DNA from: Raillietiella orientalis
Lineage: Eukaryota
Direction of reading: 5' to 3'
NCBI GenBank assembly: GCA_036172245.1
Contig: JAYWIR010000032.1
Span: forward strand, 1,364,001 to 1,428,000
Length of the DNA: 64,000 bases
The notes beneath the pieces were generated by a model. That model worked only from the letters and a program-made list of their open reading frames with translations. It had not been told where the DNA came from and did not search any database. The translations under genes were made by a program, and so were the position numbers. The first letter of the stretch is position 1, and each line of letters begins with the position of its first letter. Shown here one piece after another: positions 1 through 56,490 of this stretch.

Positions 1-869
1 AAGGGGAGGAACGTTCCTGTTGGGTCTCTTTTTCACCGGGCCCAGCTGGGATCCGCTTCCATCACATTTTCTCCGCTCCTTCCGGAGGCTGCGACTAGTC
101 TGATCCATGCGCCTGCTTTTACCGCTCCGTCTCAGAGCACATGCGGATACTTCGTTTCCCTACTGCTTGAAATTCTAATGGTTTCCAGATCCATCCCTCG
201 ATTGACTTGTCACCAAATAAGAGTGATTACGGGTTCATCATTCCTCTTGTCTCCCATAATCTTCCAATTGCATAGTTACAACGGCAGTTTCTGCTTATCT
301 TTCGATCGCTAGATGTTCTACGTCATTTTTTTCTCCGTTTCTCAAGAGAGTTTCCGTCGATACCAACGAACACTGCGTCTCGCCTCCCTTGAAGAGGACA
401 TGCAGCCGCGAAGAAGGCTCTCCGATGACCGGATAACTGAAGCAGTGAACCCTGCGTAGCTGGTTGATGTGACCTCACGAGATGACAAAGCAACAACCTA
501 CATTCTGTGACATCGGGTGCCCGCGGACCGCTGCAGTTTTCCAAAAGAGAGAAATGCTCCAGAACGCTTGCGCCCGCCTGATAGATTCCTGACGCCGTCT
601 CTTGGATACAGTCTCCGAGCATGCCTTGGGTCAAAGCCTGTGACCGACCTTCTCTTTAACACGTCCGTCCCAACAGCGTCTTTCTGGCATCACGTCAACC
701 CTGCGCGATCCGCTCGCCTTCCGCAGCAGCCTCCGTGTCGGAGTGGGAACGCCGCTCGATAAGAATTGGTGAGCTCTCTTCCCCGGCTGGTGTTGAGGCA
801 TCTTTTTACACGGAGCACAGTCCACGGCAATGACGCGTGCAGCGCATGTTCACAAGCAAGGTTCATTTT

Positions 870-1191
870 TTCTTCTTCTTCTTCTTCTTCTTCTTCTTCT
901 TTTCTTCCCCTCCCCCCCCCCTCCCCCTCTTTCCGAAAAAAGCTGTGCGTGCCGTTGTCGTGGTATCCAGAGCCGCGAAGCTCGGCGCCTATTGACAGAC
1001 GGGAAGGCCAAGTACGAAAACAAAACAAAAAACAAAAAGAAGCAAAAACAAAGCCTTCTGATTGCACAACTTAAGCATGGATTGCATGGCTGTACACTCG
1101 CACGCGTTGTTGCGGCGGCGGAAGGGGAGGAATTCTGTTGCCATCAGTGTAATCAGGAGTCGTTTCATCAATTCGTTGGGTGCATCGTCCA

Positions 1192-1224
<33 letters not shown>

Positions 1225-1306
1225 CGTCCCCCCCTTCTATCTTTCGTTTTCTCTCCCTTCCTCGAAAAGAAAAGAATGAAAAAAAAAAAAAAAAAAAAAA
1301 AAAAAA
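870..1306. repeat. Microsatellite cluster: (TTC)n 870-901, (TC)n 1194-1222, poly-A 1279-1306
   Basis: Simple repeats read directly from the sequence. Confidence 0.9.
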
Positions 1307-1642
1307 CGTGTCTTCTTACTGGAGTCTTCATGGGCGCGTATCGGTTCGACCGCCGCTTCCACGCAGCTCGTCGGTGCGCGCGGCGGGCGCGCGCGCAAAC
1401 GAATTCGGATGGGGGGGGGGTCTTCCTGCCTGCCGTCCTGGGGCGACAGAGCTAGCAATCGAGAGCTGCCAGCGGCCCTGGCGAGGTGGTGCTTAAGCGC
1501 GCGCGCGCGCGAGCCAAGAAGGGTAGCGGCGGGGACCCTTGGAGGAGGAGGAGGAGACCCCGCGTTTCCCTTTGCCGATCCGCGAGCGACCACCGGTCGC
1601 CTGCGCACACGAAACGGAGTGAGAATGGGAAAAGCTACATAC

Positions 1643-2291
1643 TTCTTCAGCTTCAGTTAAATTGCTTAGGTCCAACCCCTTTATGTCTCGGAGTACGTTC
1701 TGGTAGACGCCGTGGCAAGCTTTCTGGCACCTCCCGATGTCGAGCAGCTGGTCCTCTAGAAAAGGGGAAGAAGAAGAAGGAGGAGGAGGAGGAGGAGAAG
1801 GAGGAGAAGGAGGAGGAAAAAACAAAAACAAAAACACCCCATGGTGGCGGGTCTGCGAGCGGGAAGCGCCAGGACCACGGTCAACTTCCCGCTGCTGAAC
1901 GCGTCGACGCGCGTCTTCCGCTTCGCACGCGCGTGCGCAAAGCTCCAACAATACAGCGCCATGCACCCGACAATGCGCGCATACCTATTTCTTGCAATCC
2001 GAAGGAAACGTAATTTTCCACCCGGCGGCAGCAGCGACCAGCAGCGACCGCCGGCTCGAGCTGCTGCTGCTGCTCCGGTGAGGGAGGAGTGAGCGTCTCC
2101 TCGGCGACGGAAACCGCCGTGTCGTAAAAAGGAAGGCCCGTGGTCGTGAGTTCGGAAGGGACGCGCTCCTCTTCAGGACCGGGGGAGGCGGAGGGGGAGG
2201 CGCTGGACGGGGACGAGGAAGGGGGGGAGGAGCGACCGCTGTCCGCTGACGCCACACAGAAGGGAAGCAGGATTACCACGACAACGTGCAT
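1643..2291 (-). CDS. Pinhead-like secreted cystine-knot protein, paralogue B (5' part only: exons 1-2)
   Basis: Exon 1 2291-1985 (ATG; hydrophobic MHVVVVILLPFCVASA signal peptide; S/P/T/E-rich linker; RCCRRVENYVSFG; donor gtatgc, phase 1). Exon 2 1755-1643 (acceptor ttttctag; EDQLLDIGRCQKACHG...EAEE; donor gtatgt, phase 0). Motifs and intron phases match exons 1-2 of the gene at 7174-14958 (PCCSSVENPVSF / DEFSVDIGRCRTVCH). No further knot exons were found in 1-1642. Confidence 0.75.
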
Positions 2292-2380
2292 CTCCACTGG
2301 GAGGCGCGCAGCACTGCGAACCACAAGGAGGTTTCAGGACGTGCAACCTGGTCCTTTCCATCCGACGTGATCTTGTCCGC

Positions 2381-2407
2381 TTATAAGGGGATGCCGCGGT
2401 GACGTCA
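2381..2407 (-). promoter_or_regulatory. Candidate core promoter of pinhead-like paralogue B: TATA-like box plus palindromic CRE
   Basis: TTATAA at 2381-2386, about 90 nt upstream of the ATG at 2291 and isolated in GC-rich sequence. A perfect TGACGTCA lies at 2400-2407, just upstream on the minus strand. Confidence 0.4.
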
Positions 2408-5400
2408 GCGTGAAAAACTTGAGCTGCGATCCCATCGCATCGAACGGCACTGATTGCGATCGAGCCAATTTCGAGCTCATCGATCAGAACTCGGAAGGAG
2501 AGCCTGGGATTTACCTGGCGACCCGCTCGCGTGGGCGCGCTCGCGGGAAGCGCGGAATGAACGCGCATCGCCTCCTCCGATCCCCAGACCGCATCGCAGA
2601 AGCCGCCACCTCCGAAGGACACCTTCCCGGTGCGCGCGCGGGCTGCCGCCGCTGCTTCCGCCGTCGCCGCCGCCGACCACGACGACGGCGACAACCATCT
2701 TCGCGGCGGCTGAGTCCACTCGCGCGGCCTCGTCGGGGGCGCGCGCGCGCGAGCGAGCGAGCGAGGAATCCGCGCGCACGTTCGGGCTCACTGTTTCTGG
2801 GCCGAAAGAGTGCCTACCTGTCCGCGAGAAAGAGGAGGGTAGGGAAGCGAAGCCGGGGAGGAAGAAGGAGTATCCCACTTTTCTCCCGTTCCTCCGCTCC
2901 GCGCAACCTCGACAAATCGGACATGGGAGTTCGTCGCGAGGGCCTTCCTCGCTGCGGTTGCTGGGGAGATGCGTTCCGGCCGTTTGGGCGGAGGGGCTCT
3001 CCCTGAATGTCGTCACCGATCGGGAGACGGTCGTCGTCCGGCCGTCTCCCGACTCAGCCCACCAGCGCCCCCGCCTTTTTCCGGGCAGAAGGGGGGAGGG
3101 GGGAGGAAAAAAACGCTTCCAAAAAGAGGAGTCGAAACGGAGGGACGAAGGGGGCAAGGGAGTGGTGGACGTGCGAACGTTCCAGGAGGGAAAGACATGG
3201 CCGTGTGCAAAGGCGGCGACGATGACGCCACCGTGCCCTCTCGTTCTCTCCTGCCTTTTCGCGGACCTCTCCCCGGCGGCAAGCGACGTCTTGAGGACAA
3301 GGGTTTTCGCGCCGAAGAGCTCGGGACGACCTGCTTTCTACGTCACATTCCTAGGGTCTGCGCGAGCGAGAGACGGGCGAAAGGAGAAGAGGAAGAGGAG
3401 AAGCAGCAGAAAGAGGAAGCTTGCCGGCACTTTCGCCGCGATCGAGCGCGACGGCGACGCTTCCGACATCGCCAGGACATAAATCTCGCCGACGTTCGCT
3501 GGAGCGTGGTGATGTGTTCCTGCAGCCGATCTGATTCATTCTTTGGCCTTGCATAGCGCACACGCATGCGAGAGCCTCATCTTGGCTGCCTTCCAGCAGG
3601 AAGAGCCGGGCGGTTGGACGGACACGCCATCAGACCGACCGTTGTTTATGCGACTTTGATTTTTATCTTCCGGCACGCAGGCAGGCACACGGGCGCGCGA
3701 TGCACGCGCACACACGTGTGCGCGCCCTTTCGCGTGCCTGCTCCCCCTCTTGCCCCATAGCCGACCCCGGTAGAATCCGCCCTCCCCTTCTTCATTTACG
3801 ATTGGCTTTACTGCCGACATCCTCCTCAAAGCAAGAAGAAATGAGGATGGACGGAGGCTCGCTCGCAAACCCGAGCGACAGTAAATCTTTCTCCTGGCAT
3901 GGATATCTTCGTTTATCTTCCGAGAGAACCTGATCGGCAATCCACACCGTTCTGCAGAGGCGTTTTTTCTTTCCTTTTTTTCTTGTTTTCTTTTCTAGTT
4001 TTTTTTTTTTTTTCCTTCCTGACGGCTTTTTCATTGAGAGAAAAAAGGAAATGCCTGCCGGACAGTCTCCAGATCCATTCCAGGGATTCCCCTTTTGCCT
4101 GCCGCTTCCCGGGGAGCGAGCCGGCGAACGCCACCCCGACGGGAAACCGCCTCTCCCGTTCCCGCTTCTCGCTGATGGTGGGAGAGCATCAAGAGGAGAC
4201 TTGGTATCCCTCGCGCGCCCGAGGGCGTGTCCGGAGAACGAGCCCCCCCCGCTCATGCGGCGCGCTACCGCGCCCTCCTTCCTCCCGATGGACGCTCTCT
4301 TCCTGAAGAAAGCCAGGACGAGAACCAAGTCCGAGATGGGCGGGTGCTTTGCCGGTGATTCGTCGCGTGACAGTCGGTGGCTCAACCTTGTCAACTGGAG
4401 GTTACAACTTGAAGAAAAAGGACTTCATTAGCATCCGTCGAAACGGGTATTTCTCCCGCTCGCCGACTCCCCCACCTCTCTCTCTTTTCCTTTTACCTTC
4501 TGCACGCTTTCCGGTCACTGCCCGAGGGTCAGATAAATTAATGCGACGCTGCTGCTGCTATCAGAGCTCAAGGTTTTTTTTAGCTCCGGCCTAACTCGGA
4601 CGGGGGGAGGAAGAATCTACGGTTATCTCATCGATTTCACACTCAATTCATTCATCGCGTCCTCGCTCGCCTCATTCAGGCTCAGGAATCTCGAGACGCC
4701 AACATCCGACGCAGTTAACTAGCCGCCGTGCAAGAGGGTGCAGCGCGCGCCACAAATGTCGCCGCACCAGCGCAGCGGTCAGGCCACGGGGGGCGCGCCC
4801 GCGTCTGTCCCCGTCTCAGGGACGGATTTTTGGCGCGGCACCGTCTCTCTGACAACCCTTCCCTTCGTGACCACCGGACCCCTTCGTCCTGGAATCCGAG
4901 CCCGCGCGGAATCCATCTTCGCGTGCGGTACGTGCGCGACCTCCGCGCGATGGCGCCACCCTTCCGGCTCCCCGAGCAGTTCGTCGCAGCAGAGGCCGCG
5001 CTCCTCCTCCTCTGGGAGGTGCGAGGAAAGGCGCGAACCGCCTCGCTGCCTTGGGGCTGCCGCCGTCCACCCGTCCTCTCGCGGTCGGCCTTCCCGTCCG
5101 CTACGGAACTTCCTCGTGAACGCCCCACCTCGGCAGGCGATCGATGCGCCGCCGTCCTTCCTAGTGCGGATCGCAGCGGCAAGGAAAGTAGGGAGAGGAA
5201 GAGGAGGAGGAGAAAGACGGTGGTGGTGCTCTTCTTGTTCCGGATCCATGCGGCGACCGAGATCGCCGACGGGGGAGCTGTCTCAGCAGCGTCCGCTTAC
5301 TGCTGCTCTCCACCCAGGAGAAAGTCCTTCCGGCGGAGAGCACGAAGGCGCGAGAAAAGACTGAGGAAGGGCACCCGGAGTGCCGAGGTGGGACGACGTG

Positions 5401-7173
5401 GCACCCACAGCTTCCTCCCATTCCTCTGGACCAGACCCGGAACGGGGCAGAAGCTCCGCCGAGATCTGCTAGCCCCTGATGCTGCAGCCTGGTCGCGTGG
5501 CTCGCATAGGTCCGCGCAGAAACACGGCTTACCGGGTAGGCCGCACCAACTCCTCCTTCCCCGTCCGATGAGCTGCCCCCGCTTGCGTCCCCCGGAGCTC
5601 CCGGCTAGCCGGAGGGGAGCAGTTCCGTCCTTCCACGGGGAGAGCGTTCCGCGGGAAAGGGTGCTATGCCCGTCGAGTCCTCTTGCCCTTCCTGGCACTC
5701 CCCGAAAGAAGTCTTCCCGGCACCTCTTGTCCTGAGGCGCGCCGGCGGTCCCGAAGATAAAACCGTGGCAAGCGACGAGAGCGGCTGGGAGCCGGGCCGA
5801 GCGCACCAGCAGCGATGCGTCTCTCCCCCTCCAGGGAGCAGCGCGGCGGGCTCTCGTGTGCCCTGAGGCCGTGGCCCCCGCAGGCGGAGGCTTGGCGAAG
5901 GCAGCGAGATTGTCCTTCGGGAAGGGGAGAAGGAGGGAGGGTGCCCATCCGTCCGCGATCCTCAACCGTTCCCTTCGGCTCTCTTTCTCCCCCCCCCTCC
6001 CTCCCCCCGCCCACATTGCGCCGTTCCTTTCTCGTCGCGTGTCGGAACGCCGTGCGCGGTCGAAGTTCTGCCAGAGCGCAGCTCGCTCTCGCGGCTCGTA
6101 AATGCTGCTGCCGCCCACCACCACCACCACCACCACCACCTCCTTATTCGCTCTCCAGTTTGAACCGCGTGCCTCCTCCGAGCTCAGCCATTTCAGGGAG
6201 TGCAGGTGGCGTCTTAGGCGGGAGAAGTTGCGTAGACAAAACCCACCCGCGGACGTACGTACCCCACACCCGGATGGGGCTGGGAACGAGGAGGGGGGGG
6301 GGGAAATGGAGAGACCCTGCCCCTGCCTCCGATCAGGGAGTCACAAACTCTCCAGGACATGCGCTTCCGTATCGGGGCGGCGGCCAAAAGCGGAGCAAGG
6401 GAGCGGGCGTGAACCTTTCGGGAAGCTGCACTACCCACGCGTGAATCCTGCTCCGAGCTGACACCGCCATTTCCGCCGGGAACGGGGGGGGGGGGTGCTA
6501 GCGCGCGGATGGGTTGTCCTCCGCCAACTTCCGCTGCTATGGAGCTCTCTCAAGTGACGGATCTGCTCCCAATCCCTGAGGAAGCCGGCGCCAGCGCGGC
6601 CAGGATGGGAATGCGGGAGGTTAGGAGCGAGGAGGAACCGAAGAAAAGGGGGAGACAGTGAGGGAGTAGCCCTCTGCCGGGAACCGGAGCGACATCCGGC
6701 GTGCGGCGCGCTCCCGGGGCAGAGGCGCCTCCCGAACCGCGCCAGGGGGTCCAGGCACGAAGGGCAACGACCCTCGAAGGACACCCAGGTTCCGGGAAGG
6801 CCGCCCTTCAATCCTCTGCCGCAGAGTTCCTCCTTCGGTCCCGGCGGAGTAGCGGGTGATAGCGGACGCGAGCGAACGGGCACGACGATGATGGAGAGGG
6901 GGACGCCGCCGCGCGGCAGCGCCCCGCAGGCGGCGGCGGCGGCGGCGAAAGCGGAGACGCCCAGGGGAGGTGAGGAAGAGGTCGGACCGTTCCCTTCGCC
7001 AGGAGAAGGGTGAGCTCCCGAGACTTGGCGGGCTCCTTCCAATCCTCTCTTCCCTTCCCGCTCCCCCGCCGCTTTCGTCCGCGCACTCTTTCCAGCAGGG
7101 CGTCCGCGCCCTTCCTGGGCAACGGCTTTATTCCAAGGGATGATGTGGTGGACGCCTCCCGGCAGGGTCTTCG

Positions 7174-10100
7174 TCAGAGGCATTCGCAGGCGTCGACCGC
7201 CAGGACGTGAACCCAGACGCCATTGCCGTTGGTGTGGTACTGCCGCGTGAACCCCTTGGGGCTGCAGCTGGTCGTCCTCTTCAGGGACATCAGGCATTCC
7301 TCCGGGTTCTTGGGGTTCCTGAGGGGAAGGGAAGAGCGAAGATCTCTCTCCTCCTCCTTCCCCTCCCTCACTGCCAGGGAACGGATGGACGGACAACGCC
7401 CGCGGCGCGGACACATCCGTCCCGGCTTCCCTTCTTACCTGAGCACGCAATGGTGGGCCTCCTTCTTTGCGCAGGACCCCACGCACTCTCCGATGTTCAC
7501 TTCCTAGAACGAGAAGAAGGATGGAAAAGGGTCATTTGGGGAAGGGAGGGGAGGGGAGGGGAAGCGGGCCGGGAGGCCGGTGCGAGCGTGTTGTGCCATT
7601 GGGTAAGCATTGAGGGCGCACAAGCGCGCTCGGTACACAACGCCCCCCCCAGCCCTGTTTTCCCTCACTCTCTGAGCGCGTTCACGTAAGCATCACCTAC
7701 CCGTTCCCATAAGTTGAAAAAACAAGGGTAATCTGGGAAGGGGGTGGCCGACCCGTCCAAGTCCGGAGGCGGCCATATGCATTTCTGAAGGACTGAGAAA
7801 TACGAATGGCCAAGCGTAGGAAGGAAGGGGGGAGAGGGGGGACAACGGTTGTCAGATCTTTTGACTTTTCTCGATGTGTGAGGAGCAATCTCTGCTTCCT
7901 TCGTCGCTTTTCAAAACTCGACTGGCGCAGGCGTTTTCCTCCTCGTTGTTTTCCATCCCTTGCTGTCCCTGTTTTCTTTGCATTTTTCTTTCTTTCTTTC
8001 TTTCTTTTTTTTTTCTTGCGCCTCGTTTTTCACTCTCTCGTGTTCTTGTTTTCGAGATTCCATTCACATACTCGCGTGTGTCACCACCAAATATTCGCTG
8101 ACACACTGACACACACGCAAACACTACTCGCAGACACGACACCGAAAAACGCTTTGCACGCGCCCCATTTGGTTTTCCTTTCTTCGTTGCACTCTCTCTT
8201 TTTCCTTTGGCCCATGTCCACTGGTCGTTGGAAACGTGGCGGGGCCGACCGGCGCTTCTGGAAGCCTTTCCTTCCAGCCGGAAAACGAAATGAAGGAATT
8301 TGCGCTGGGACTACAGCCCAGGTGACCTCCAAGACGGCTGACCATAGAAGGTGGCAGAAGGAAACTTCTTGTCGATCCACCCTTTGTGCTCCGCGCTCTT
8401 GCTGGGCATCTCGGTAGTCGATGCTGCTTGCATGGGATGAAGGTAGTCGCAGTTTGCCACGATATGTGCCACAAGGAAAAAAAAAAAAAAATTAGGAACG
8501 CGTCCACATTTGGTCATTTTTACGTTGCAGTTGTGCTGCATGGATGAAAACGCGTCGAGAGAGAGCACCGCAGCCTGCAGCCTCATTTCCTTCGTCTGAG
8601 GTCTTCACTGCGTGTATTTTTGCAACGAGGCGCTTTCGAGCGTTGGCGCCCATCGTGTCGATAACGATGTTTGCACGTTTCTTTGCTCTTCTTTCCTTTT
8701 TCTTTTTCACGAACACTTGCAAATAAAATATTCAAGCTTTCACCGGAGGCTCGGGTTAAATGGTCGTGAGGGGGAACAAGATCGGCAGCAGACATTCACA
8801 TACATTCGCAACAGGCGAAGCGAGTAGTAATTAAAGTAGTGCTGATGTTTTTTCTAACGTCGCACATCGAGGGAAGAAAATTCATCTGCACAAAAGTTGT
8901 CGACATTCTCGTTTGCAAAGAAAGAAAAGCAACAGTGATGGATGTGAAATATCCTGTCCTCTGCTTATTTTCTTTTTGTCCTCTGATTGCATTTGAATGA
9001 AAGATTGCTTCTGATATCAAATTTAACATCATTCATACTGACCGCTGTTAGTATGAATGACTTCGCCTGTGCGATATTTCATCTGCATTGCCAGAACCAA
9101 CACTCCATGCCTTTTGCTTGTGGACCAACGCCATCCCATTCTAAGAACGAATTCGTTTCGCTTGTCTTGGGTCTATTGGCGCCGATTCTATCATTATTCA
9201 ATGCTGAAGTGGTAAATAGACAAATCTAAATGGAAGAGAAAGGCTCCATCGGATTTTTTAAAAGATTCCGCAAAAAGGAAGAAAAAAAAAAAACATTCAG
9301 AGATGAAACACACACACACACACACAGATATGGACTTCTAAAGAGGAATCGGAGTAGTGACGTCACCTTCCAAGAAGAACTTCATGGATAGCTGCGGCTG
9401 TAGAACATTCGGAACTTTCCGCAACTTTGTATTTTAGGGAGAAACTGAGATTACTCTATCTGGGACTACAGGGTCTGTAGCTTCTAATGGGACAACCTGC
9501 GAAACAGCAGGAAGTTTGCACACCAATGCAAGAGCCATTAGATCATCTCGCAGGTACGGATGTGCGGCTCATTATAGAGAAGAGTCCTCCCTGGAGTGGC
9601 AGCACCCGTTTCGCTCAAGGAGCACCATCCCTCGAAAGTCGAAGATCCAGGATTCGATCATGTTCCTTTTTTGTGTGTTTTTGTCTTTAAATGGAAAGAA
9701 ATCGATCCAAATCAGCTCTGGATGTGGAAGAGCGGAATGCATTTGGCATTCCTGGAAGTGCGCAAATCACAAGAGGATCGAGTGGGTTCTCCAGGAGTCC
9801 TTGCTGACTGACGGACCAAGATGATTGTGCCTGCTGAATTCGGTGCTAGTCGTTGCTTGAACTCCCCCCCCCCCCTCCCTTTAACCCCCTCCCTCACCCT
9901 CAAAAAAAAAGATCCTGTTTCACGAACGGGATGCTGTTTGCCGAAAATTTCGTGATTCCATCGTTTTGCTAGCGGAACATGACTTGTGGAGTTGCCAGGG
10001 AAACACGTAAGGTCAGAGCCCCCCTTTGTCCCGTGTGAAAACACAGCGCGGAAACGTCCCCGACAGTCACCCGGCAAGCTCATTCCAGGTCCGCGGAAGG

Positions 10101-13100
10101 GAACACTTCGTAGGCGAAGAGGATAAAACAAAAAAAAAAAGGAACGCCCCCCACCACTCGGTCTCTTCCTCTTCCCTTTGCGACATCTTCCAGGGGAGAC
10201 TCCAGCTAGCTTTATCTGCACCCGGATTCGTTAGATGGTCGTCTCTGAGTCTGCAAGGAACGGAGGAAGGAGGGTTTGAACCGAGAACACGCATGCCCAC
10301 GTCCAACGCACGCCGTCTGGATTCGAATTTCCGCGACCGGTCGCTCACTGGGATTTCCTACCGGGAAAACCCGAGCTTGCCAGGGAAGATCTGTTCCTTC
10401 TCGCCGGGAGTGAATTCCCTGCGAGCAAGCGAAAAGACGACGGCGTGCGTGCAGCCGACTTTTTATCTTGAGGAATCGCGAGCACCCGAAGAAGCGATAT
10501 GATTTGTCGTGACTTACTATCAGCTTTGTGATGTTCTTCCCATCTTCGGAAGTTTGGTGATCATAAACGTAATCGTATTTGTCCATCCGGTAACACTTGC
10601 CCAGGCATCCGCACGAACTGGTAACATTGATTCCATAAGATCCTTGGCATTGATGCAAACCAATAAATCCACATAACAGCGGTTTATGAAAGCAGCAGTT
10701 CAGAGCAGGAAAAGTAATCGAAAAGAGAAAACCAAAAAAAAAGAGAGAGAGGGAGGGAGGGAGGAAAGGCAAGAGGAGGAGAAGAAAAGAGAAACCAGGC
10801 GAGAAAGTCGATAGGATTTGTTACCATTTGGGCCATCTATGTGGAGCGTAGTGTTTCTCGTGGAGTGGCATTCCAGATCTGAAAAAAGTGCATTCGTCCA
10901 GTTCGATGGCGGGCGGGAAGCAGAGAGCTCACTGCAGGGAGCACAGGAAGGGAAAAGTCGCTGGAGATCGTAGAGAAGAGAGCAACGAGGTTGAGAGAAG
11001 GCCTGGAGGAAAGAGCAGCGACCCCGTTGACTTTCGTACCAGTGGTCGCGTACTTCTGACAATCTCGTGAGAAACGCTCTGTGCGCGAGGAATCCCAGCC
11101 AACCACCAAACAAACAAACTCCACCCCTTCCCTCCTCTTCCCCTTCCCCCGGTCTTGAAGAGGTCAAGTACTCCGATTCGTCTGAACGGGCCTGGCCTGT
11201 CCCAACACCCCGAAGTCCCTGTGTCCTGATCCCCATGCTCCGCGAATCGAACTTTTCGAGTTCCTCCCGAAAGGAGAAGGGGAGGGAGGGAAGGAAAGAG
11301 GGGCCTATCTTCTCCGGAAGCCGAAGGTTCTCGAATGACCCCCGACTCCCGGCTCTGGCGGTCGATGAAATCTCTCGAACTGACAGGGAACCCCTTCGAG
11401 GGCGTCCCTTTTCCCCCCGTGATGACGAAAGCGCCCTCTCGAGGGTGCACGCGAATCAGTGGATCCTCCGTTGGGAAGACGATGGGCGGAGGCACCACGA
11501 GTATTTTCTTTGATGTCCTGCATCCCCCTCTTCCTCCTCCTCCTCCTCCTTAAGATCCTTCCCCAAGACTCTCTCATCTCCACCGACGTTTGCCTCCCAG
11601 CGCTTCTTTTCACCGCTTGAAAAGCATGCGCTCACTGCTCCCACCACCTAAAGCACTCGCGGCACCCGTCTAGAGGATAAGATCGAATCAGCTCTATTTT
11701 TTTCCCCACTCTCTCTCTCTATTCCTCTCTCTCATCACTCTCTCTCTCTCTCTGCGCAAAAAAGAAAAAAACTGATACCGGCGAACGCGGCACCTTAAAA
11801 GAAAGCTCCCGATAAAGATATCATGTTTGATGCTGCTGCGCTACTCGATGGGAAGCTGCGCTCCTAGCCGAACCCCATTCTGATCCGTGTCTCTGAGCTG
11901 TGTCGTCTCCCCTCCGTCACACGCACCCTCAAGGTGCTTCTGTTGTTTTTCATCCACGATTATCTCCGAAAGCGAATCTGCATCCGAAGAGAGAGGGAAA
12001 GGGGGGGGGAAGAGGAGGAGAGAAGCTGCCGCGAGCGATCTCGCTCATCTCTCTCGGAACCGCGCGCGCGCACCCTCCCCCCCGAAACCCGTCTTCTCGA
12101 AAAACGCTTCCGAAAAACTCGTTTGTCCTGCAGTCGCCCAGCGCTGAGAGGTTTCATCTCCCCCCTCCCCCACCCCCTTCGGGTCGGCCTCCCCGCGCGG
12201 TCGGGGACGAACTCCTCCGTTGCCGCGGGGATTCTCGAAGTGCAACAGCAACCAATCGTCCCCTCGTGGGCCGGATAGGCAGAGCTCTGCGCTGGTTTCC
12301 TCCGGAAGCTTCGTGCTTCCAGAGGAACGCCCAGCCCGCTGAGATCCGTAGGTCACGCGGCAACATGGGATGTGAGGAAGAGCTGGTTGAGCTTCCACCT
12401 CTGCTCGGAACCCATCCCGCGCGTCCCTGCGCCCTGAAAGGATCCCAAAGAACATGGCAGGACTCCGCCTCTGTATCCTTGCTGAGCTACACGAAAGCAT
12501 CTCTGCCCGGATCCCTTTCTTCTTGCTTTTTCCCCTTCTTTCCTCTCTCTTCCCTGCTGCCACCACGGAAGAGCTCTGCTTCGCTGCGGAGGAGGAGGAA
12601 CCTCCGTTCCTGGAATTTCCGTGGAACGAGACTCCCGTCTCCGAGTGAAGGCAATGGCCCCAGGTTCGGTCTCGAGTCACTCTTACGAAAGTCCTAGAGT
12701 TTCCTGGGCGATCCTGCCGGAGGCGATGCGCACTCTCACGAGCGGAGAGACTTCGAAAGTGAGAGTTCCTCCTTTCTTCCTTTTTCCTCTTCCTCCGACG
12801 ACGGTACGCCGCCGCCTGGAACGACGAGCGTGTCAGCCCTCTCATGTTGGCTGCGTGACGGTCGCGATCGGCTACCAGCCCAACAGCATTCCTTGGGAGA
12901 GCCAGAACAGTAGCCGGCCACTGTAGCTGGGCGACAGAGCGCGAACGGTGGCCTCCGCGACAGGCTTCCTTCCTCCTCCTCCTCCCTCCCTCCGAACGAT
13001 TTGTTCCAGCCGCGAAGGCAAGCATTAGGTGCGTTCCCCGGTTCGAATTCCGAGTTTATGAATCACCGTCGGTGTCATCGCAGCGGATCTCCTCAGAGCA

Positions 13101-14958
13101 ACGAGCGACAATCCCAGCAGGAAGAAACAAAAGCTTTTGTTCTCCTCCCTCTCCTGAGCTCGAACAATCCTCTTCCGCGAAGGATTCCAGGAATCACGCG
13201 GATGCCGTCAGCGAGAATTCTAAAGCGGACGACGGTAGCGAGCGCGGCAGTGTCATCGTAATCACCGCAAAAAGAGCATCCGTGGGAAAAGAAAAGAGAA
13301 AAAGGAGGGCAGAAGGTGGAAGAGGAGGAGGAAGGGAGAAGGAAAACTCATGGGCTCGTCACGTGGTTCCGAGAAGGAGAGATCTCATCCGGCTTACTTT
13401 CCAAGCACATTCCGGAGCACCTTCCGATGTCGATGAGCGCCTCGAAGGGGGTGTCTGGGAAGAAGCGCATCATCCTGTCTGTCCTCCCACAGGGGGTGCT
13501 GACGTTGAAGCAGTGGCAGGACTCGATCACGGGCATCTCCCTGATTCCGTAGGTCCAGTGCAGCCTCTGCAGCCTCTCCAGGTTGGGAATGCAGAGCTCG
13601 TCCTCCCTGCATGCGTCCTGCTGGCCGCCGTCGTGGTCTTCCTGGGGATGCGGGAAGAGGAGAGCGACCAGTCTCTGCTGGGGAGGAAGCGGAGGGGACT
13701 GGGCGGGGAGCAGCGGAGGCGGCGCTCGCTCTGCTCGGAGCTCCGTCTCCAGGCAACCGTCCGGATTCGATCACCTCCCTCCGGCCTGTTACTGCGTCTC
13801 CGAAAAGACCCGCTTTTTCCCCTCCTCCCGCCGGCCCGTGGCCCTCTTCTGGAAATCGCCCGATCTTGCAGAGGGAACCGAGGAACTAGGACCTGCGGAC
13901 GGAGGGGAAGCGCTGGGGATGGATCTCTCCTGACCCCGCCGGTGCGCGCTGGGAACCGAAAGAGAGGAAGGGGGGACTGCCCTTGTCCGGGACAACCCCA
14001 CTTTCCACCTCCGGGTAGTCACAGAGACTTCGAGCCTCTGTGCCTCCAGCATTGGGCTCGGAGTGCCGACTCCGCGCAGCATCACCCTCCTTCATCCTCC
14101 AGAGGGAGGGTACTGGTGAGGGGGGAAGGAGGACCTTGTCCTCCAGTGTCGCCCTGCTCTCCGGTAACGACGCGCCTGCGCCTTTTCTTCGACCCCGAAG
14201 GGTGTTTCCCGCTCCCGCCGCAGTGCGCGCTGGCATCGGTCTTTCCCTACCGCGTAGCCGGCGGCCGGTTCCTCTGCCTCGTCGTCCCCGGGGGGCTTGT
14301 GGCACACTGTCCTGCACCTGCCGATGTCCACGGAGAACTCATCTGCAACGAACAACAAGAAGTGCGCTGTCCCCGTCCAGGTGGTAGAGCGAAGGCGCCC
14401 GGAAAGGGGAACGGGGGGGGGGGGGTGAGAACTTCTAAGGTGCTGTTCTTCTAAGGTCTTGCTCTCTCCTCCTCGGGCGGTCGGGACAACGGCGGCTCGC
14501 GAGGAGGGGTCGCGCGCTTCCTTACCTCTGTCGCCACTCCGGAAGGACACAGGATTCTCCACGCTGCTGCAGCAGGGCCGCCTCGGGCGGTCCGTGATTT
14601 CCTCCTCCGACCCGGAGGTGGGCAACAGCGGTGGTCCGGGTGTGTCCGTCGGGAGCGTGCCGTCGTCCTCGGTCGCCTCCATCGTAGCTGGGGAACCCGT
14701 CGTGATGCTGGCGGTCGCGGCCTCCTCGTCGTCCTCCGCAGGGTCCGTCGGCGTCGCATCCGCCAGCTCTCCGCAGGGAGTCGTCCACGGGGTTGTGGTG
14801 GTCGTCTCCTCCCGGTTCCCTCCGGCCGCAGCCCCCCGCACACACACCGCGATTACCGCCGCCACCGCCGCCACCACCGATACCACGAGGCGCGTTCTCG
14901 CCGCCCTGCCACCGCAGCTCCTCCTCCTTCCGCCGGGGGATCCGCATGCCACCGCCAT
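7174..14958 (-). CDS. pnhd: Pinhead (secreted protein with three tandem cystine-knot domains; BMP/ADMP-pathway modulator), paralogue A, about 385 aa
   Basis: Seven exons with consistent phases and GT-AG sites: 14958-14526, 14342-14251, 13641-13398, 10878-10825, 10642-10518, 7503-7439, 7318-7174 (1158 nt). Spliced product: hydrophobic N-terminus, T/P/acidic linker, then CC..VDIGRCRTVC..LCIP..VIESCHC; C..FFPDTPFEALIDIGRCSGMC..LECHS..GPNG..SSCGC; KCYRM..EVNIGECVGSC..HCVLR..EECL..SCSP..VLAVDACECL*. This matches the triple-knot pattern I recall for vertebrate/ascidian Pinhead. Minus-strand AATAAA at 7132-7127. Confidence 0.85.
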
Positions 14959-20900: not shown

Positions 20901-23900
20901 AAGTTTAAGCTGGAAATATTCAGCATTTATTAGAATTGCAATGAAAAAGGAACTGGATTTTTTTCACATTTTCATATTGCCTGAGTCACTGTTGCTTTGC
21001 TTCTCAGGCATCATGATGTGATTGTGTTTGAATCTCCATTCCATCGAAAGATTCGTTTCACTTAATGTTTCGTTGTTGAATAATTTTCATGTTTCCATTC
21101 TGAGTACTCAATTCAGTTCGTTAAAGACAATGCAAATACATACACACATATACCATCCATACCAAGTACTTAACATTCGTGCTTTGATTTTATTTCAAGT
21201 GTTGGCATCCGTTCCGTTTGGAGTATGCAAGTCTTCTCTGCTCTTGTCGTGCAAGTGCAAACATTCTCGTATTTTTATCGGTCCCATAAGTGAGCCCGCA
21301 AAGAAAAATCTCTCTATCCATGAGGGTAGTCCTTTAAAGAAAACAGACTGTCGCTTTAAGCAAAATAAGTAGCCTTTATTTTTGAGTGTACAACTTAGAA
21401 AGCACAAGTGCAACTATGTGATATCAGCTTACCATTTATTATGGTATGGGGAGCGTTGATTGGATGCATGCATTATACTTTAAATTAGAAACTTTTCTGT
21501 TTTTGAGTCGATTCCTTTTAGAAAAAGAACGAGCGTCGTTGCAGTCGGATGAAGATCCGAACCCTAGTCATCGTGAACCAAGTCAGCAAAGTACAGCTGT
21601 TAATTCCACAGTAGTGAATAGTCATTTTGTTAAAGACAGTGCAAATACAGCCATCAGTAACAAGAAAACAGTTGCTATTCCAAGTGTAAAGAATCGAATT
21701 AGTGGATCATCTCCCGTAGTGAAGTTTGTTGACACTTTATGCATGAAACATTCCATCAGAAATTCTAGAAAAATATATCCCCCGGGAAAAAAAAGCAAAG
21801 CTCTCATCAGCAAACCCACTGAATCCGAAATCAGTCAGAACTTGTCACTAAATCAACCAAACTCTGCCGCCAGCATTCGTGTTCCACAAAACCTAGATTC
21901 AAATAAGGCAAACAGCACTACCCAGAAATCCCAAAAGAACAGTGACCCAACAGTGAAGGGTTCGAGTGTGCCTACGTCATTGAGGGATGTTTTGCAAAAC
22001 CGTTCTTCCATGGAAAAACTCCTTTTGGTGCAGAAATCCTTGCATCCGTTAGTGTTGTCTCAACCGTTGCTGATGGCATCAAGTTCTGTACAGCTGTTGC
22101 CACACACGAAATTGATTCCCATTGCTCCCAGGAAGGAAGGGAAGCTGGCTTTGCAACCGTTGCCGAGGAAAGTAAATGATCAAGTCTTCCGTGCCAAAAA
22201 ACGTCGGCGTGTAGGGACAGGTAAAGTCACCGATACAGCGGAAGTTGAAAATAATGAAATCACATCCGATAATTCTGCAAGTACCATCGAGAACAACATC
22301 ACAGAATTCTTTGCTGATGAAAATTTGCAAGTCAACGACCGCAGTAACGCTGTTGGTACTGAAACTTGTACAGATCAGTCACTGTGTGCTGCTGAGCTTC
22401 CGGAAACATCGTTTTGCGGCATAACGGACAGTACGGCCGAAAAATGTGACATAGAGCAAAGTTCTGTCCAAGATAAGAGGATAAATGACGATAACATTAG
22501 CGAGTCCATGAAAACGGCCGTTAATGCGACTTTTCATCAAGAAATCAACCCAGTTCCTTCAGACCTTGTGACAGATAGTGAATTGCAATTAGTTGAGATG
22601 TCGCAAGATAAGGCTTCCTCGGATTGTTTTCCCAAAGTTTCGGACTCTGTGCAAAATCACGAACCCGGGGAAATCGAAAAGAGGAAAGTAGATAGCGTTC
22701 CACTGGTGCCATTGGAAAACGTTCCTCTGGAAAGCTTCTTGACGGACTCCTCCGAAAACAACGAGTGCAGCTATGTGGATTCCACGGCGGAGCGTTCAGA
22801 AAGACAGAAGAACGAAACCATCGTAAGAGTGGACGAATATTCACGTGTTAATACGTCCTGTAGCAGCAATCCAAATGCAAACATCAGCGAGTCTTCTACT
22901 GCTGAAAGAGAATGCGACTCCGTTTCTGCAGCCGATACTTCTGGCTGCTCATTCCGTTGCACGAATTCTAGTCTTCTGTCCGAAGATACGCAGTGCTTTC
23001 TTGCCCTCCAAGCCTCAGAAACAGACCGATGCCCCCGGTCCTCTCCACAGACATCTACAGACAAGACATATCAAACCCCGAGCATATCCCCGTTTAACTG
23101 GAAAGCGTCAACGAATTTCACAGATTCAACTCTCTCAGCACTAACTTCTGTCCTTAAAAACCTAACAGAAGCTCCCTGTGGATCTTTGCTCGACAACTCT
23201 ACCAATTCCTCTTTAGAAAAATGTATTTCTAGAGACTTAATGCAGGATAGTTCTTGGAAGAACCTGGATGCATCGTTTCCCGTTCCGACTGACATTTCCA
23301 AACCCACAACAACGTGCAGTACACAAATTGCTGATCAGACGTTATTTGGGGATTCAGATCAACGCATGCGGCAATTTTTGCTGGACTTTCCTTCCAATGA
23401 TAATTTGCAATCAGCCGAGTCTCTTGCGAATATTAACGCCAGTGCCGTGAATCACCCGTTTTTGTCAGTCAGTCAGCTGGTCAATTCCAATGTGGATAAC
23501 AGTTCTACTCGTATAGCAAAACAACCCCGTGCAGTACTTCCGGTTTCAGATCCAAATGAGTACAAAGTAGGCATCTCAGAAAGGAAACCCGTTGGCCCTC
23601 AGAGAACCTTGCCAGAACTGTCCAGGGTGGATAAGTTGAAGGGAGTTTCAAAACTGAAAGTGAGCAATAAAAGCGTGTGCCCGTATTTCAAAAACGTCAG
23701 CGCTAACTCCAACCAAGCTGTGTGCAATATGAATCAGGAACCTGTTCCCAGATGGAACAGCAGTAAGAACTCGGAAGTGAGGCAGACGGACAATAATCGG
23801 ACGAGCTACAGATACTCCGCAGAAGCCTTGCTCAGTGATTTCTATCAGGGGAGATGCCCAGGACGGCAAAATTCCTACGACAAACATTCTGGAAATGAAT

Positions 23901-24927
23901 ATTATTCCTATGAACCCTGCCCTCCTATTTCCCAGGCGTCGTTTTCACATGGGCAAATGCTGACGCATGCCGAACCTTCAAGGAACCATCAAAGTTTTGC
24001 CCAGCATTATCCGTCTGATTCCTGGAACTATGTGGCACCTTTAACCCACATCAGCAATTCCCAGCATTCTTTTAATAATGTTTGCTATAATAACGATTCA
24101 AGCCACTATAATGGCTTAACTGGCACCATCTATCCCCATCTCCCCACCAATTCATCGCATTCTTTTGATTGCCCTGATAATTTTACTGCGTCCGTTTCTC
24201 AGAATCAGAATGGTAAAAACTCTCAGTATGATACGAATAACCACAACCTATCAGCTACCTATGGTTGTAGTGTACCTTCCAGAGAAAGTAAGCAAGCATT
24301 ATCAGTTCCGCCTTGTGCTCCCCATGAACATTTTCATAACACAAAAGTGATGCCAAGGAAAGAAGATCACATGATTACTTCACAGGGACATTTGGACAAA
24401 GGATACTATGCTAATTTCCTTCCCTCAAATCTTGCAACTAACAGAAATAATAAAACACAGAACTGTGTGCCTTACAGTGCAGAATGTGCTGCCATACTAG
24501 AGAATCCCTGTCATAAATCTGTGAGCTCCCAACAATTAGACATGTCCCAAGAAAAAAGCAACAGTATGGTGCTGGGTTCACTTCAGCACCACAGAGATTT
24601 GCCACCATCGTCATCTGTAACCAATTTCAATCTTACTTCTATATTTCCAGAATTCAATGGCAAAGTAAGGTTATAATGGTTGATCCAACTGTATTCTGAT
24701 ATACATTGCAGAATGCAAATCACACATCTTCAAGTCTTGATCATAGTGGAGGAAAAGTGGCCACAAGCAGCTACTCCAGTGATACATCCGGCCTGTTTGT
24801 CCCTCCTACGTACCACTTAGCTTCTACAAATTCTGCTCCCTTATCCGTTTTACATGGAGGCATTAATCTGGGAAATTATACCGGGCAAGTAAGAGAAGGT
24901 CAAGTATTCGAGTCATTTGTTTGGTAG
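17999..24927 (+). CDS. USF3: bHLH(-zipper) transcription factor, USF3/KIAA2018-like, about 1260 aa
   Basis: Exon 17999-18272 carries a bHLH (RKQTERKRRSQMKQAVVSLSKLLP...QLDILQNAITYINKL). Exon 19513-19668 is a coiled-coil extension (ENTIKQMQHTIVLFKRKNDHLTSLVKALNI). Exon 21522-24664 is long and S/N/T/Q-rich, with short motifs FLSVSQLV, YSAEALL and NFNLTSIFPE. The last exon is 24712-24927. Phases 1/1/0 are consistent. An alternative end via intron 24889-24939 would stop at 24981. The bHLH is secure; USF3 orthology rests on architecture and a recalled YSAEAL motif. Confidence 0.7.
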
Positions 24928-24992: not shown

Positions 24993-26648
24993 TTATATCA
25001 CTTGTAGCATTTCTTGTCTATCAGTTTGCTGCACATTTTCAACGTGCTCTCCTATTTGATAAGCTACAATGGTGGCATGATCCAGTTTTCCTGGAAATTG
25101 AACCAGCCGCCTAGTAATAGTTTTCCTTTGGCGTGGATTGTGAATTCCATCAGGCATGACTTTATACAAATCTGGATCTTCTAGCATCTTGCGTTTAGCT
25201 GCAGTAAGCTGAACAGCAAAGTGGATCATAGTTTTGCAAAGCTGTTCAGCATTTTGGATTTGGCCTGCTCCCATTCCATGCACTAATAAATCTTCCATCC
25301 TCAGTAAGGACAGTTCGTGACACTGGAAGGCTTCTGCCTTAGGCCAGTCATTCACTCCAGCTAATGTAGAGTTATTCTTGATTGAAGAAGGGACACAAAA
25401 TTTTCCCACAACAGGGTCAAAATTATCTGATATGCCATCACTCGTCAGAAAAACAATATCGCCAGCATTTGCTATCGTTAAACTGCATGTCAAATTTGCA
25501 AGGTCGGGCTTTGTACCCTCAGCTGGACCTAGAGCACCTAATGCATTCCTCATGTTCCTTGTGGAGTGAATATCATGGGAACCTAAATCTGGGTCTTATT
25601 TTCATGAACTTGAAATACACCAGTTACCTTCAGTAACTTCCCATACACCTTGGTTGCTGCTGTAAACATAGGCTAAACTATCCCCCACATTGCAAACACA
25701 CACTGCATATTCTTCTCTGATTAGAAGTGGCACCACAATAGCTACAGTTAATGTAGTCAGTAAGCCACCCTCTTGAAGAATAAGGTGATGTGCTTCCAGA
25801 AATGAATGCAGCAGAGCTTCAAAGAGAACCTGACAAATAATCATCAATGATTGGTAACTCTTACTCCAGTATTGCTTGGTTTCAAGATATCTGTCTTTTC
25901 AAATAAAGCATGGTTCAAATAATTTATACATCCATGAATAGCACAACGTGCAGCCAAACTGGCTTGTTCACCCCAGTTCACACCATCAGCTAAAGCCAAG
26001 ATGGCATTGTTTTCTCGTGCTACAATGGCATATGCATCAGCTATTGGATGACCTATATGCTGCAAAGTGAGTGGGTTGCACTCATAAAGAGTAGTTGACA
26101 TTCCAAAAGCAAATGTAGCTGCATTATCCCAATCACATACACCAGCTATCTTGACACCTACATGAAAAAAGGCAGCCTTGTGGCAAAACTGAGCTTGAAA
26201 TAGTGGAAAATGTACATACTTGGGGTGTTTGATGATGAGCTGTCTATTTGCACCTTCTCATCTTCATCATCAATATAGTCAACATCGGATGCATCACATG
26301 TAAAGCTTGCTTGCTTTAAATTCACTGAAGTCAAGCCCCCGCTGGGTCCTGTTGATGCTGCCACTACGTTTTTTTTCAGAAGAGCAATTTCGAGCAAAGG
26401 AAGCTTTTTGGGATCTTTATGGCACAGGACTTGGCGGTAATTTGTCTTAACATCCCTAGAACGTTATTCCGTGCGAACAAAAGTAAAAAAAAAACACGGC
26501 AATATGGGCGAACAACCTACCCTCGCAAATATCTTTGAATAAATGATTCTTTGTTGAACGACACGGGCTGCTGTTGGGGATCTTCGTGGAACTTGTCGTT
26601 CGAGAACTGTTTCAGGAAATCACCAAATATTTTTTTAATGGATAGCAT
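24993..26648 (-). CDS. PP2C (PPM-type phosphatase)-like domain protein, Drosophila CG9801-like, about 482 aa
   Basis: Exons 26648-26521, 26455-26220, 26157-25865, 25829-25628, 25582-24993 (1449 nt, phases 2/1/0/1). PPM motifs [48 protein letters not shown] and [11 protein letters not shown]. Confidence 0.9.
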
Positions 26649-51799: not shown

Positions 51800-56029
<4,230 letters not shown>

Positions 56030-56403
56030 CGCCGGCAGCGCCGCCCCAGCGGCGGCGAGGAGAAATACACCCCCGCCTCTCCCGAGAGACCGGTGCTGCT
56101 GCTGCCCTCTCCCATTGCCCCGCCACATGCGAGTCCGCTTCACTGGAGGGCTGGGGGGTGCGGGTGGGTGGGTGAGGAGGGGGAGGAAGAGGAGGGACGG
56201 GTCGGGGTCTCCGCGGAGCCAAGCATCCCAGCAAGCGGCTCCCGGAACGAAGACGGGAGACGCACGGAGGTGCCTGCGCAGTCCGAAGGACTGAGGGGGA
56301 TGTTCGCCCCCCCCCCCTCCCCTCCCCCCACTACGGACTGGAGAGCGCAGGCGCGGAAGCGAACGAACCGATCGATCGGACGGCAGGCGGAGAGAGTCCG
56401 AGC

Positions 56404-56417
56404 GTAACCGGGGCAAC
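56404..56417 (+). promoter_or_regulatory. RFX X-box upstream of DRC7
   Basis: GTAACCGGGGCAAC fits the GTNRCC-N(0-3)-RGYAAC consensus and ends 74 nt before the ATG of a ciliary gene, the usual position for X-boxes. Confidence 0.75.
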
Positions 56418-56490
56418 GGCGGCGGCGGCGGCGGCAGCCGGTTCCCGGGCGTGGCTCCGCGGAAAGCCGCAGTCGCAAGAAGAAGCCCAT

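What the first reader, a model, noticed from the sequence alone, without database searches (positions are those of the whole stretch)
1643..14958. Tandem pair of diverged pinhead-like genes; Admp predicted just beyond the left edge
Seen: a complete triple-cystine-knot gene (7174-14958, -). 4.9 kb downstream on the same strand is a second gene whose first two exons have the same CC..VENxVSF / DIGRC..CH motifs and the same intron phases (1, 0) but otherwise different sequence. Established: pinhead lies immediately upstream of Admp in many bilaterians. In Ciona, transcription of pinhead represses Admp in cis through enhancer competition. Inference: an old tandem duplication changes that two-gene switch, with two pinhead promoters ahead of a possible Admp. 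I know of no description of such a cluster. Short exons in GC-rich sequence make both genes easy for annotation to miss.
Basis: partly seen in the sequence, partly recalled or inferred. Interest (0 to 1): 0.8.

Follow-up and report, generated by a model that had tools for sequence, protein, structure and literature searches.

The report
Doubled pinhead–Admp gene cluster
An ancient pair of neighbouring genes that helps set the back-to-belly axis of animal embryos (pinhead and Admp) is present twice over in one 34-kb cluster of a crustacean-like animal, with the second Admp turned around, which offers a built-in comparison for asking whether the neighbour's position controls Admp.

Summary
Confirmed and extended. 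Gene A (14958–7174, minus strand, 7 exons, 385 aa) is intact. Gene B is not a fragment: five more exons lie left of the window (353 aa, same six intron phases, 22 of 22 cysteines shared, 125 of 251 residues identical). Both match the Pinhead family, with all 22 cysteines aligning to the named Saccoglossus pinhead-like protein. The predicted same-strand Admp starts 639 bp after B's stop. Order: pinheadA→ pinheadB→ Admp-a→ ←Admp-b. RNA contigs of a relative (one run) support 5 of 6 Admp introns and purifying selection on Admp-a (37 synonymous of 40 listed changes). Trees make each pair sisters within pancrustaceans (pinhead 100/99, Admp 94/92), so these are old, probably separate, local duplications. 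Inferred, untested mechanism: B→Admp-a keeps the ancestral head-to-tail cis coupling, while Admp-b's promoter lies outside it. Duplicate Admp (ambulacrarians, vertebrates, bryozoans, a millipede) and duplicate pinhead (Artemia, horseshoe crab) each occur elsewhere. I found no description of a linked 2+2 cluster. New variant of a known kind; no embryonic expression data.

The parts
14526..14958 (-). pinhead A exon 1 (ATG, hydrophobic signal-like stretch, acidic Thr/Pro-rich linker, first Cys pair)
14251..14342 (-). pinhead A exon 2
13398..13641 (-). pinhead A exon 3 (244 nt; end of knot 1, start of knot 2)
10825..10878 (-). pinhead A exon 4 (54 nt)
10518..10642 (-). pinhead A exon 5
7439..7503 (-). 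pinhead A exon 6
7174..7318 (-). pinhead A exon 7 to stop; AATAAA begins at 7132
2292..2440 (-). putative proximal promoter/5' leader of B (TATA-like and CRE-like motifs, labels recalled); a dead copy of this stretch lies on contig C13
1985..2291 (-). pinhead B exon 1 (ATG, signal-like stretch, Ser/Pro linker)
1643..1755 (-). pinhead B exon 2
1..1642 (-). first part of pinhead B intron 2 (8236 nt in all). The cluster continues left of the window on G000:C32: B exons 3-7 at 1357406-1357163, 1352763-1352710, 1352659-1352523, 1349120-1349059, 1348985-1348841 (minus); Admp-a at 1348201-1346681 (minus, 4 exons, 428 aa); Admp-b at 1344647-1345951 (plus, inverted, 4 exons)

Best explanation
The locus is an intact four-gene cluster, pinheadA→ pinheadB→ Admp-a→ ←Admp-b (34.3 kb), made from the ancestral bilaterian pinhead→Admp pair by two old local duplications in one pancrustacean lineage: a tandem copy of pinhead and an inverted copy of Admp. 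SHOWN: gene models, family identity, order, orientation, deep divergence, and splicing of both Admp genes in a relative. FROM ESTABLISHED KNOWLEDGE of the families: the products are secreted; Admp is a furin-processed BMP-type ligand and Pinhead a three-cystine-knot protein that binds or modulates Admp in dorsoventral patterning. INFERRED: the ancestral cis coupling is kept by B→Admp-a. B's poly(A) signal is only 427 bp from Admp-a's ATG, so Admp-a's upstream regulatory DNA has to lie in that gap or inside B's long introns (8.2, 4.4, 3.4 kb), and B transcription could shut Admp-a off in the same cell. Admp-b's promoter is on the far outer side, outside both pinhead transcription units, so it should escape that repression and have its own domain or timing. 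A is separated from Admp-a by the whole of B and acts mainly as an extra secreted modulator.
For: Gene models and spacings. All 22 Cys of A and of B align to the Saccoglossus 'pinhead-like' protein; the Atlas first hit is the cluster named Pinhead, 0.87, a lead only. The two best genome matches to Saccoglossus ADMP are Admp-b and Admp-a; their mature domains share 61-67 residues with the two named Admp proteins versus 36-49 with the genome's four other TGF-beta genes. Sister pairs: A+B 100/100 and 100/99; Admp-a+b 96/94 and 94/92. Four-fold sites are near saturation in both pairs (37 of 56; 40 of 78). RNA contigs of run X1 match 5 of 6 Admp introns, and 37 of the 40 listed differences in Admp-a are synonymous. 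All four genes have AATAAA within 42-213 nt of the stop. Cis repression and binding in Ciona/Xenopus: passages of PMC6989304 and PMC8188501.
Against: No embryonic or spatial expression data; A's RNA was not tested and B has only one contig on its last exon, without a splice joint. In zebrafish the mutual repression goes through Smad1/5 sites in each promoter, and in Xenopus Pinhead can raise admp transcription, so cis repression is not universal. No enrichment of Smad composite motifs: 1 silencer-like match in the 10 segments scanned, about 0.6 expected in total. An alternative tree with Admp-b joined to Daphnia Admp was not rejected (p-AU 0.074; Admp-a 0.044). The mature-domain tree gave no supported Admp clade against the four outgroup genes.
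Confidence: 0.5

Rival explanations
1. All four genes work, but without cis coupling: the copies give dosage or robustness and are controlled in trans by BMP/Smad feedback, as reported for zebrafish pinhead and admp. The arrangement is just where local duplications landed.
For: Zebrafish: Smad1 binds and represses both promoters and the genes compensate for each other (PMC6989304 passages; PMC8034876 passages). Local duplicates stay linked by default. Contigs for both Admp genes and B's last exon occur in one bulk RNA run, which says nothing about cells.
Against: The head-to-tail pair is kept across bilaterians (PMC6989304) and B–Admp-a remain only 639 bp apart although B's introns reach kilobases. 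About 50% and 65% identity after near-saturation of silent sites suits diverged rather than redundant copies.
Confidence: 0.3
2. The outer copies (A and/or Admp-b) have left axis patterning for later or tissue-specific roles, or A is a silent or decaying copy; only B→Admp-a is the functional ancestral pair.
For: A has the longer branch (1.04 vs 0.52) and a longer, Arg-rich N-terminus with the hydrophobic stretch at residue 28. A's expression was not tested.
Against: A has no stop or frameshift, keeps 22 of 22 Cys, canonical splice sites and a poly(A) signal despite saturated silent sites (dN 0.41, pS 0.77). Admp-b is spliced in a relative.
Confidence: 0.12
3. The two Admp genes are an ancient pair (older than the sampled pancrustacean splits, or even the admp1/admp2 split known from ambulacrarians) that was lost elsewhere; their sisterhood in my trees is a composition or long-branch artefact of a GC-rich genome.
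For: Short common stem (0.29) against long tips (0.97/0.96); Admp-b + Daphnia not rejected (p-AU 0.074); in that alignment Admp-b is slightly closer by identity to a millipede Admp (46%) than Admp-a is to Admp-b (45%). GC3 is 0.89 and 0.90. No admp2 sequence was in my sets. The mature-only tree left them unresolved.
Against: They are sisters under both LG+G4 and the mixture model, are each other's closest match by identity, and fall inside a pancrustacean group (91/78).
Confidence: 0.07
4. Assembly artefact (haplotig or collapsed repeat).
For: A single assembly; I had no DNA run to check contiguity (the one run search was for RNA).
Against: The copies are only about 50% and 65% identical at protein level, with unrelated intron lengths in A and B, and both Admp copies appear as separate transcripts in a relative. 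No N in the 164 kb.
Confidence: 0.01

Closest known systems
pinhead–Admp tandem pair (Ciona, zebrafish, Xenopus; 'arthropods to vertebrates')
   Same: Three-knot pinhead immediately upstream of a same-strand Admp (B→Admp-a). The same neighbourhood shows in the database hits: Chamberlinius CHUAL_006956/006955, and Saccoglossus and Lingula pairs on contigs of equal length.
   Different: Both partners are duplicated in place; one Admp is inverted and convergent; one pinhead has no Admp directly behind it. Cis repression is untested here.
Ambulacrarian admp1/admp2 (Paracentrotus, Ptychodera, Saccoglossus)
   Same: Two Admp paralogues in one genome; there they are expressed on opposite sides and oppositely regulated by BMP (PMC4600745, PMC11226491 passages), a model for what Admp-a/b might do.
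   Different: Here the pair groups within pancrustaceans, so it looks independent. Genomic linkage of admp1/admp2 to pinhead was not in the passages I read, and Chang et al. 2016 was not available.
Other duplicates seen in databases or papers: Artemia pinhead-like LOC136026886/LOC136026883, two Tachypleus pinhead-like genes, two Chamberlinius Admp-like genes, bryozoan admp x2, vertebrate ADMP1/2
   Same: Lineage-specific extra copies of one partner.
   Different: The Artemia pair is much younger (227 of 326 identical; own clade 100/99) and its adjacency is unverified. The Chamberlinius Admp copies are on different contigs. None was shown to double both partners at one locus, but I could not read those genomes' gene order.

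Membership tests
Pinhead | Sequence homology to named Pinhead proteins | tested here: met
   The exon-3 profile found 155 proteins at E<=0.001 (150 listed). I looked up names for 28 of these 150 plus 2 hits: 1 of 30 is named pinhead-like (Saccoglossus), the rest are uncharacterized, fused models or unnamed. A and B align to it over 299 and 280 columns with 22 Cys matched. Atlas first hit 'Pinhead' 0.87. A word-based search with exon 3 alone found nothing; Pfam has no relevant family for 4 of 4 family members scanned.
Pinhead | Three cystine-knot units | tested here: met
   Three CxxxC plus three CxC motifs in knot order in both A and B (a fourth CxxxC overlaps). The fold was tested only on the Artemia homologue: pLDDT 83.7, three repeats of paired long strands; Foldseek gave only weak matches (0 at E<=0.001; best E 0.02), the listed rows being cystine-knot growth factors or their complexes. 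A and B themselves were not folded.
Pinhead | Secreted (N-terminal signal peptide, no other membrane segment) | tested here: inconclusive
   A hydrophobicity scan shows one N-terminal hydrophobic stretch each (B at residue 3, A at residue 28); no signal-peptide predictor was available.
Pinhead | Immediately upstream of a same-strand Admp | tested here: met
   Met by B (639 bp); A is upstream of B instead.
Pinhead | Binds/modulates Admp; expression complementary to Admp | not testable with these tools
   No spatial expression data; no complex prediction was run.
Admp (TGF-beta/BMP) | Signal peptide, TGF-beta prodomain, RxxR site, 7-Cys mature domain | tested here: met
   PF00019 and PF00688 above cut-off for both genes; N-terminal hydrophobic stretch and R-x-[K/R]-R sites ahead of the mature domain; 7 Cys in the printed mature alignment.
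Admp (TGF-beta/BMP) | Closer to Admp than to BMP2/4, BMP5-8 or activin types | tested here: met
   2 of 48 hits to Admp-b are named Admp; most other named hits carry automatic BMP-like names. Reverse search: the two cluster genes rank first and second of the genome's 6 TGF-beta genes. Mature identity 61-67 vs 36-49. The labels dpp/gbb/activin/myostatin for the other four are recalled, not from a call.
Admp (TGF-beta/BMP) | Monophyly with Admp against other BMP families | tested here: inconclusive
   The 105-column mature-domain tree leaves both genes in the unresolved mass of Admp hits, and the four outgroup genes do not form one side of a branch (the weakest hit, P0048, was left out).
Ambulacrarian admp2 clade | Orthology to sea urchin/hemichordate admp2 | not tested
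   No sequence named admp2 was returned by my searches; sisterhood of Admp-a+b argues against.
Ciona-type cis-repression switch | pinhead transcription represses the neighbouring Admp in cis | not testable with these tools
   Only the geometry was examined.

The most novel reading that the evidence does not exclude
The cluster is a genome-encoded Admp see-saw. B transcription silences Admp-a in cis, while the inverted Admp-b has escaped and is switched on in the pinhead/BMP-high domain. This would re-evolve in an arthropod, by a simple inversion out of the pinhead shadow, the opposite regulation known for sea-urchin admp1/admp2, with Pinhead A and B specialised for different Admp copies.
Probability: 0.15. 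Interest if true: 0.78.

Novelty: new variant of a known kind. Interest (0 to 1): 0.52.

Why it matters
The pinhead–Admp head-to-tail pair is a two-gene linkage kept from arthropods to vertebrates. Why it is kept is open: cis repression was shown in Ciona, but zebrafish and Xenopus behave differently, and my search found no paper holding pinhead, Admp and crustacean together. This locus holds one Admp directly behind a pinhead and one turned away from it, plus one pinhead with and one without an Admp behind it, in the same nucleus. That is a natural control for the cis model. The caveat is that the host is probably not a laboratory animal, and duplicates of either gene alone are not rare.

Tried and rejected
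B as a pseudogene fragment: rejected, five more exons and an open frame. Other pinhead copies or a remnant beyond Admp-b (expected from an inverted duplication of the whole cassette): none in the 164-kb region or in two genome searches (2 matches; 5 of 6 matches fall in A or B, the sixth has E 8.6); these are lower bounds. An alternative acceptor for A exon 4 at 10931 breaks the frame. A first B exon-3 acceptor 10 nt further in broke the frame (corrected). A first Admp-b intron-3 acceptor broke the frame; an in-frame 87-nt GC-AG intron was proposed and is not covered by RNA. A word-based protein search with A exon 3 found no hit among 5 candidates. Pfam and NCBIfam have no pinhead model. The PDB sequence search cannot tell Admp from other BMPs. 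Smad-motif scan: no enrichment. Nested genes in B's introns: 0 Pfam hits among the 53 ORFs of at least 110 aa scanned from L003 and the B part of L004 (118 of the 194 listed ORFs left of the window were scanned in all). RNA: only one run, a 2017 metatranscriptome with 0.09 of the words; its contigs differ from the genome by several percent, so they come from a relative, and contig depths were not used to rank genes; parts without cover prove nothing. Imai 2012 and Chang 2016 were not held.

Full report
OBSERVATION. The window is G000:C32:1364001-1428000 of a 210-Mb assembly; positions left of the window are given either as contig positions or as contig position minus 1364000 (negative numbers). 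Gene A joins from seven GT-AG exons into a stop-free 385-aa protein with intron phases 1,0,1,1,0,2. B's ATG lies 4882 bp after A's stop and its first two exons have phases 1 and 0, as reported. I fetched 100 kb to the left. tblastn with A found five more B exons, at C32:1357406-1357163, 1352763-1352710, 1352659-1352523, 1349120-1349059 and 1348985-1348841. They give a stop-free 353-aa protein with the same six phases; exons 3, 4 and 7 have identical lengths in A and B. Over the cysteine-rich part 125 of 251 aligned residues are identical and 22 of 22 cysteines are shared. B is a complete gene.

PINHEAD IDENTITY. Pfam and NCBIfam have no model for these exons, nor Pfam for four family members, and a word-based search with exon 3 alone found nothing. 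A profile of the two exon-3 translations found 155 proteins at E<=0.001 among 1.84 billion. I looked up 28 of the 150 listed and 2. One of the 30 is named: the pinhead-like precursor of Saccoglossus. The others are uncharacterized or unnamed proteins, those with a species name coming from crustaceans, insects, chelicerates, a millipede, lophotrochozoans and deuterostomes. All 22 cysteines of A and of B align to the Saccoglossus protein. The Atlas first hit is the cluster named Pinhead (0.87, below the 0.9 the tool calls more than a lead). Both proteins have three CxxxC/CxC sets in cystine-knot order. An AlphaFold model of the Artemia homologue (pLDDT 83.7) shows three units of long paired strands; its PDB matches are weak (none at E<=0.001) but the listed rows are cystine-knot growth factors or their complexes. 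A and B themselves were not folded. Two genome searches found no third pinhead (lower bounds).

WHAT LIES DOWNSTREAM. The genome gave 6 TGF-beta domain matches; two lie directly after B. Admp-a (C32:1348201-1346681) is on the same strand, begins 639 bp after B's stop, and has 4 exons and 428 aa. Admp-b (C32:1344647-1345951) is on the opposite strand, tail-to-tail, 729 bp between stops; it is 363 aa if a predicted third intron is spliced. Both carry the prodomain and the mature domain. Their mature domains are 67 of 103 identical and their introns 1 and 2 sit at the same positions. Of 48 hits to Admp-b, 2 are named Admp (Ptychodera, Saccoglossus) and most other named hits have automatic BMP-like names. 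Saccoglossus ADMP searched back against the genome ranks these two genes first and second. They share 61-67 mature residues with the named Admp proteins against 36-49 with the other four TGF-beta genes, which I label dpp, gbb, activin and myostatin types from recall. The mature-domain tree does not resolve an Admp clade, so the assignment rests on similarity, prodomain matches and position. The order is pinheadA→ pinheadB→ Admp-a→ ←Admp-b over 34.3 kb. Each gene has an AATAAA 42-213 nt after its stop.

EVIDENCE OF FUNCTION. One RNA run held part of the Admp region (0.09 of the words). Its contigs differ by a few percent, so they come from a relative. They skip Admp-b introns 1 and 2 exactly as modelled, and one 1434-nt contig fits Admp-a with all three introns removed (introns 1 and 2 as listed joints, intron 3 from the piece lengths). 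That is 5 of 6 Admp introns; Admp-b intron 3 is not covered. B's last exon is covered by one contig without a joint; A was not in the stretch laid. Of the 40 listed differences (37 more were not shown), all in Admp-a, 37 are synonymous. A versus B gives pS 0.77 and dN 0.41; four-fold sites are near saturation in both pairs (37 of 56 against 0.73 expected at saturation; 40 of 78 against 0.57). These are old, conserved paralogues, not haplotigs.

HISTORY. A and B are sisters (100/100 among 36 rows; 100/99 under the mixture model among 22 rows) inside a pancrustacean group (99/97), weakly beside Artemia and Daphnia (81/81). I placed the host no further. Admp-a and -b are sisters (96/94 among 28 rows; 94/92 among 16). 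Joining Admp-b to Daphnia Admp was not rejected (p-AU 0.074) and joining Admp-a was marginally rejected (0.044). The Admp pair has a short stem and long tips (0.29 vs 0.97/0.96), the pinhead pair a long stem (1.2 vs 1.04/0.52). I infer two separate duplications, Admp first; rate changes after duplication could distort this. The order P→P→A→←A is also not what a single tandem or inverted copy of the pair gives, and no pinhead remnant lies beyond Admp-b.

HOW IT MOST LIKELY WORKS. Established: pinhead lies immediately upstream of admp from arthropods to vertebrates, and in Ciona their exclusive expression is set by a cis-acting, chromatin-level mechanism (PMC6989304, passages; the primary paper, Imai 2012, was not held). 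Xenopus Pinhead binds and inhibits Admp (PMC8188501, passages). In zebrafish Pinhead acts as a BMP-like ligand redundant with Admp and both promoters are repressed by Smad1 (PMC8034876, passages). Shown here: B's poly(A) signal is 427 bp from Admp-a's ATG; B's introns are up to 8.2 kb while Admp introns are 60-88 nt; Admp-b's start is on the outer flank facing inward; A ends 23 kb from Admp-a's start with B between. Inferred: Admp-a's upstream control DNA lies in or under B, so B→Admp-a can keep cis repression, Admp-b should be free of it, and A contributes mostly as protein (0.5). Rivals: trans-only feedback with passive linkage (0.3); outer copies with later roles or a silent A (0.12); an ancient Admp pair (0.07); artefact (0.01). 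A scan for Smad composite motifs gave no enrichment: one silencer-like match in B intron 5, about 2 kb upstream of Admp-a, against about 0.6 expected over the 10 segments (the consensus patterns are recalled).

COMPARISON AND NOVELTY. The genes are members of known families, and B→Admp-a is the known pair; database neighbours show it in Chamberlinius (consecutive locus tags) and, by equal contig length, in Saccoglossus and Lingula. Two Admp genes are known in echinoderms and hemichordates with opposite expression (PMC4600745, passages; PMC11226491, passages; PMC4571091, passages), in vertebrates (PMC3296468, passages) and in bryozoans (PMC13121700, passages). The Strigamia paper mentions ADMP once and pinhead not at all (PMC4244043, passages). 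Chamberlinius has a second Admp-like gene on another contig. Nine literature searches (listings seen, open-access library only) showed no description of a linked doubled cluster; pinhead + admp + crustacean gave 0 papers. Imai 2012 and Chang 2016, and all supplements, were not seen and may list such cases, and I could not read gene order in other animal genomes.

VERDICT. Real, intact and larger than reported: a 2+2 pinhead–Admp cluster with one Admp inverted. It is a new variant of a known kind. Its interest is as a natural control for the cis-repression explanation of this conserved linkage; the regulatory claim itself is untested. Interest 0.52.

Noticed in passing
L002:1501-1755 (G000:C13:492822-493076) vs window 2437-2167: A single 82%-identical copy of B's proximal upstream region and first ~35 codons lies on another contig, with a stop after codon 16. 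The ~70 nt around the TATA-like motif are almost unchanged. No other copy found in the genome.
   Followed up: partly
   Followed up: no
L004:647-1951 (Admp-b): The whole gene reads as one open 434-codon frame because its introns (60, 66 and a predicted 87 nt) are stop-free multiples of three; annotation could call it intronless. Admp-a intron 1 and the predicted Admp-b intron 3 are GC-AG.
   Followed up: partly
P0226, P0116, P0163 (database proteins): 3 of 9 long family hits scanned are gene models that fuse a pinhead-like part to a TGF-beta prodomain (two also to the mature domain), e.g. Pelodiscus LOC102453510: read-through or mis-annotation of the close pair. B and Admp-a are close enough for the same.
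   Followed up: no
window 56176-58479 +: Long open frame (767 aa, apparently without introns) with DRC7 MORN and CEP76 peptidase-like domains.
   Followed up: partly
window 21422-24676 +: 1084-codon open frame, Ser/Asn-rich, no Pfam match.
   Followed up: no
window 24993-26257 - and 55030-56175 +: Exons resembling a PP2C-like-domain protein and a calponin/transgelin-like protein; both labels are recalled, and the pieces scanned gave no Pfam match at 0.001.
   Followed up: no
L006:3614-3994 -, L006:4537-5466 -, L007:7888-8259 +, L010:3983-4384 -, L011:1554-4782 -: Genes left of the cluster: SPFH/Band 7, RRM, FAD-binding 4, signal peptidase S26 and DCAF17 domains; usable as synteny markers.
   Followed up: no
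P0003/P0024 and P0058/P0221 (database proteins): Independent duplicates in other arthropods: two Admp-like genes in Chamberlinius on different contigs, and two pinhead-like genes in Artemia on one chromosome with gene ids three apart; adjacency not verified.
   Followed up: partly
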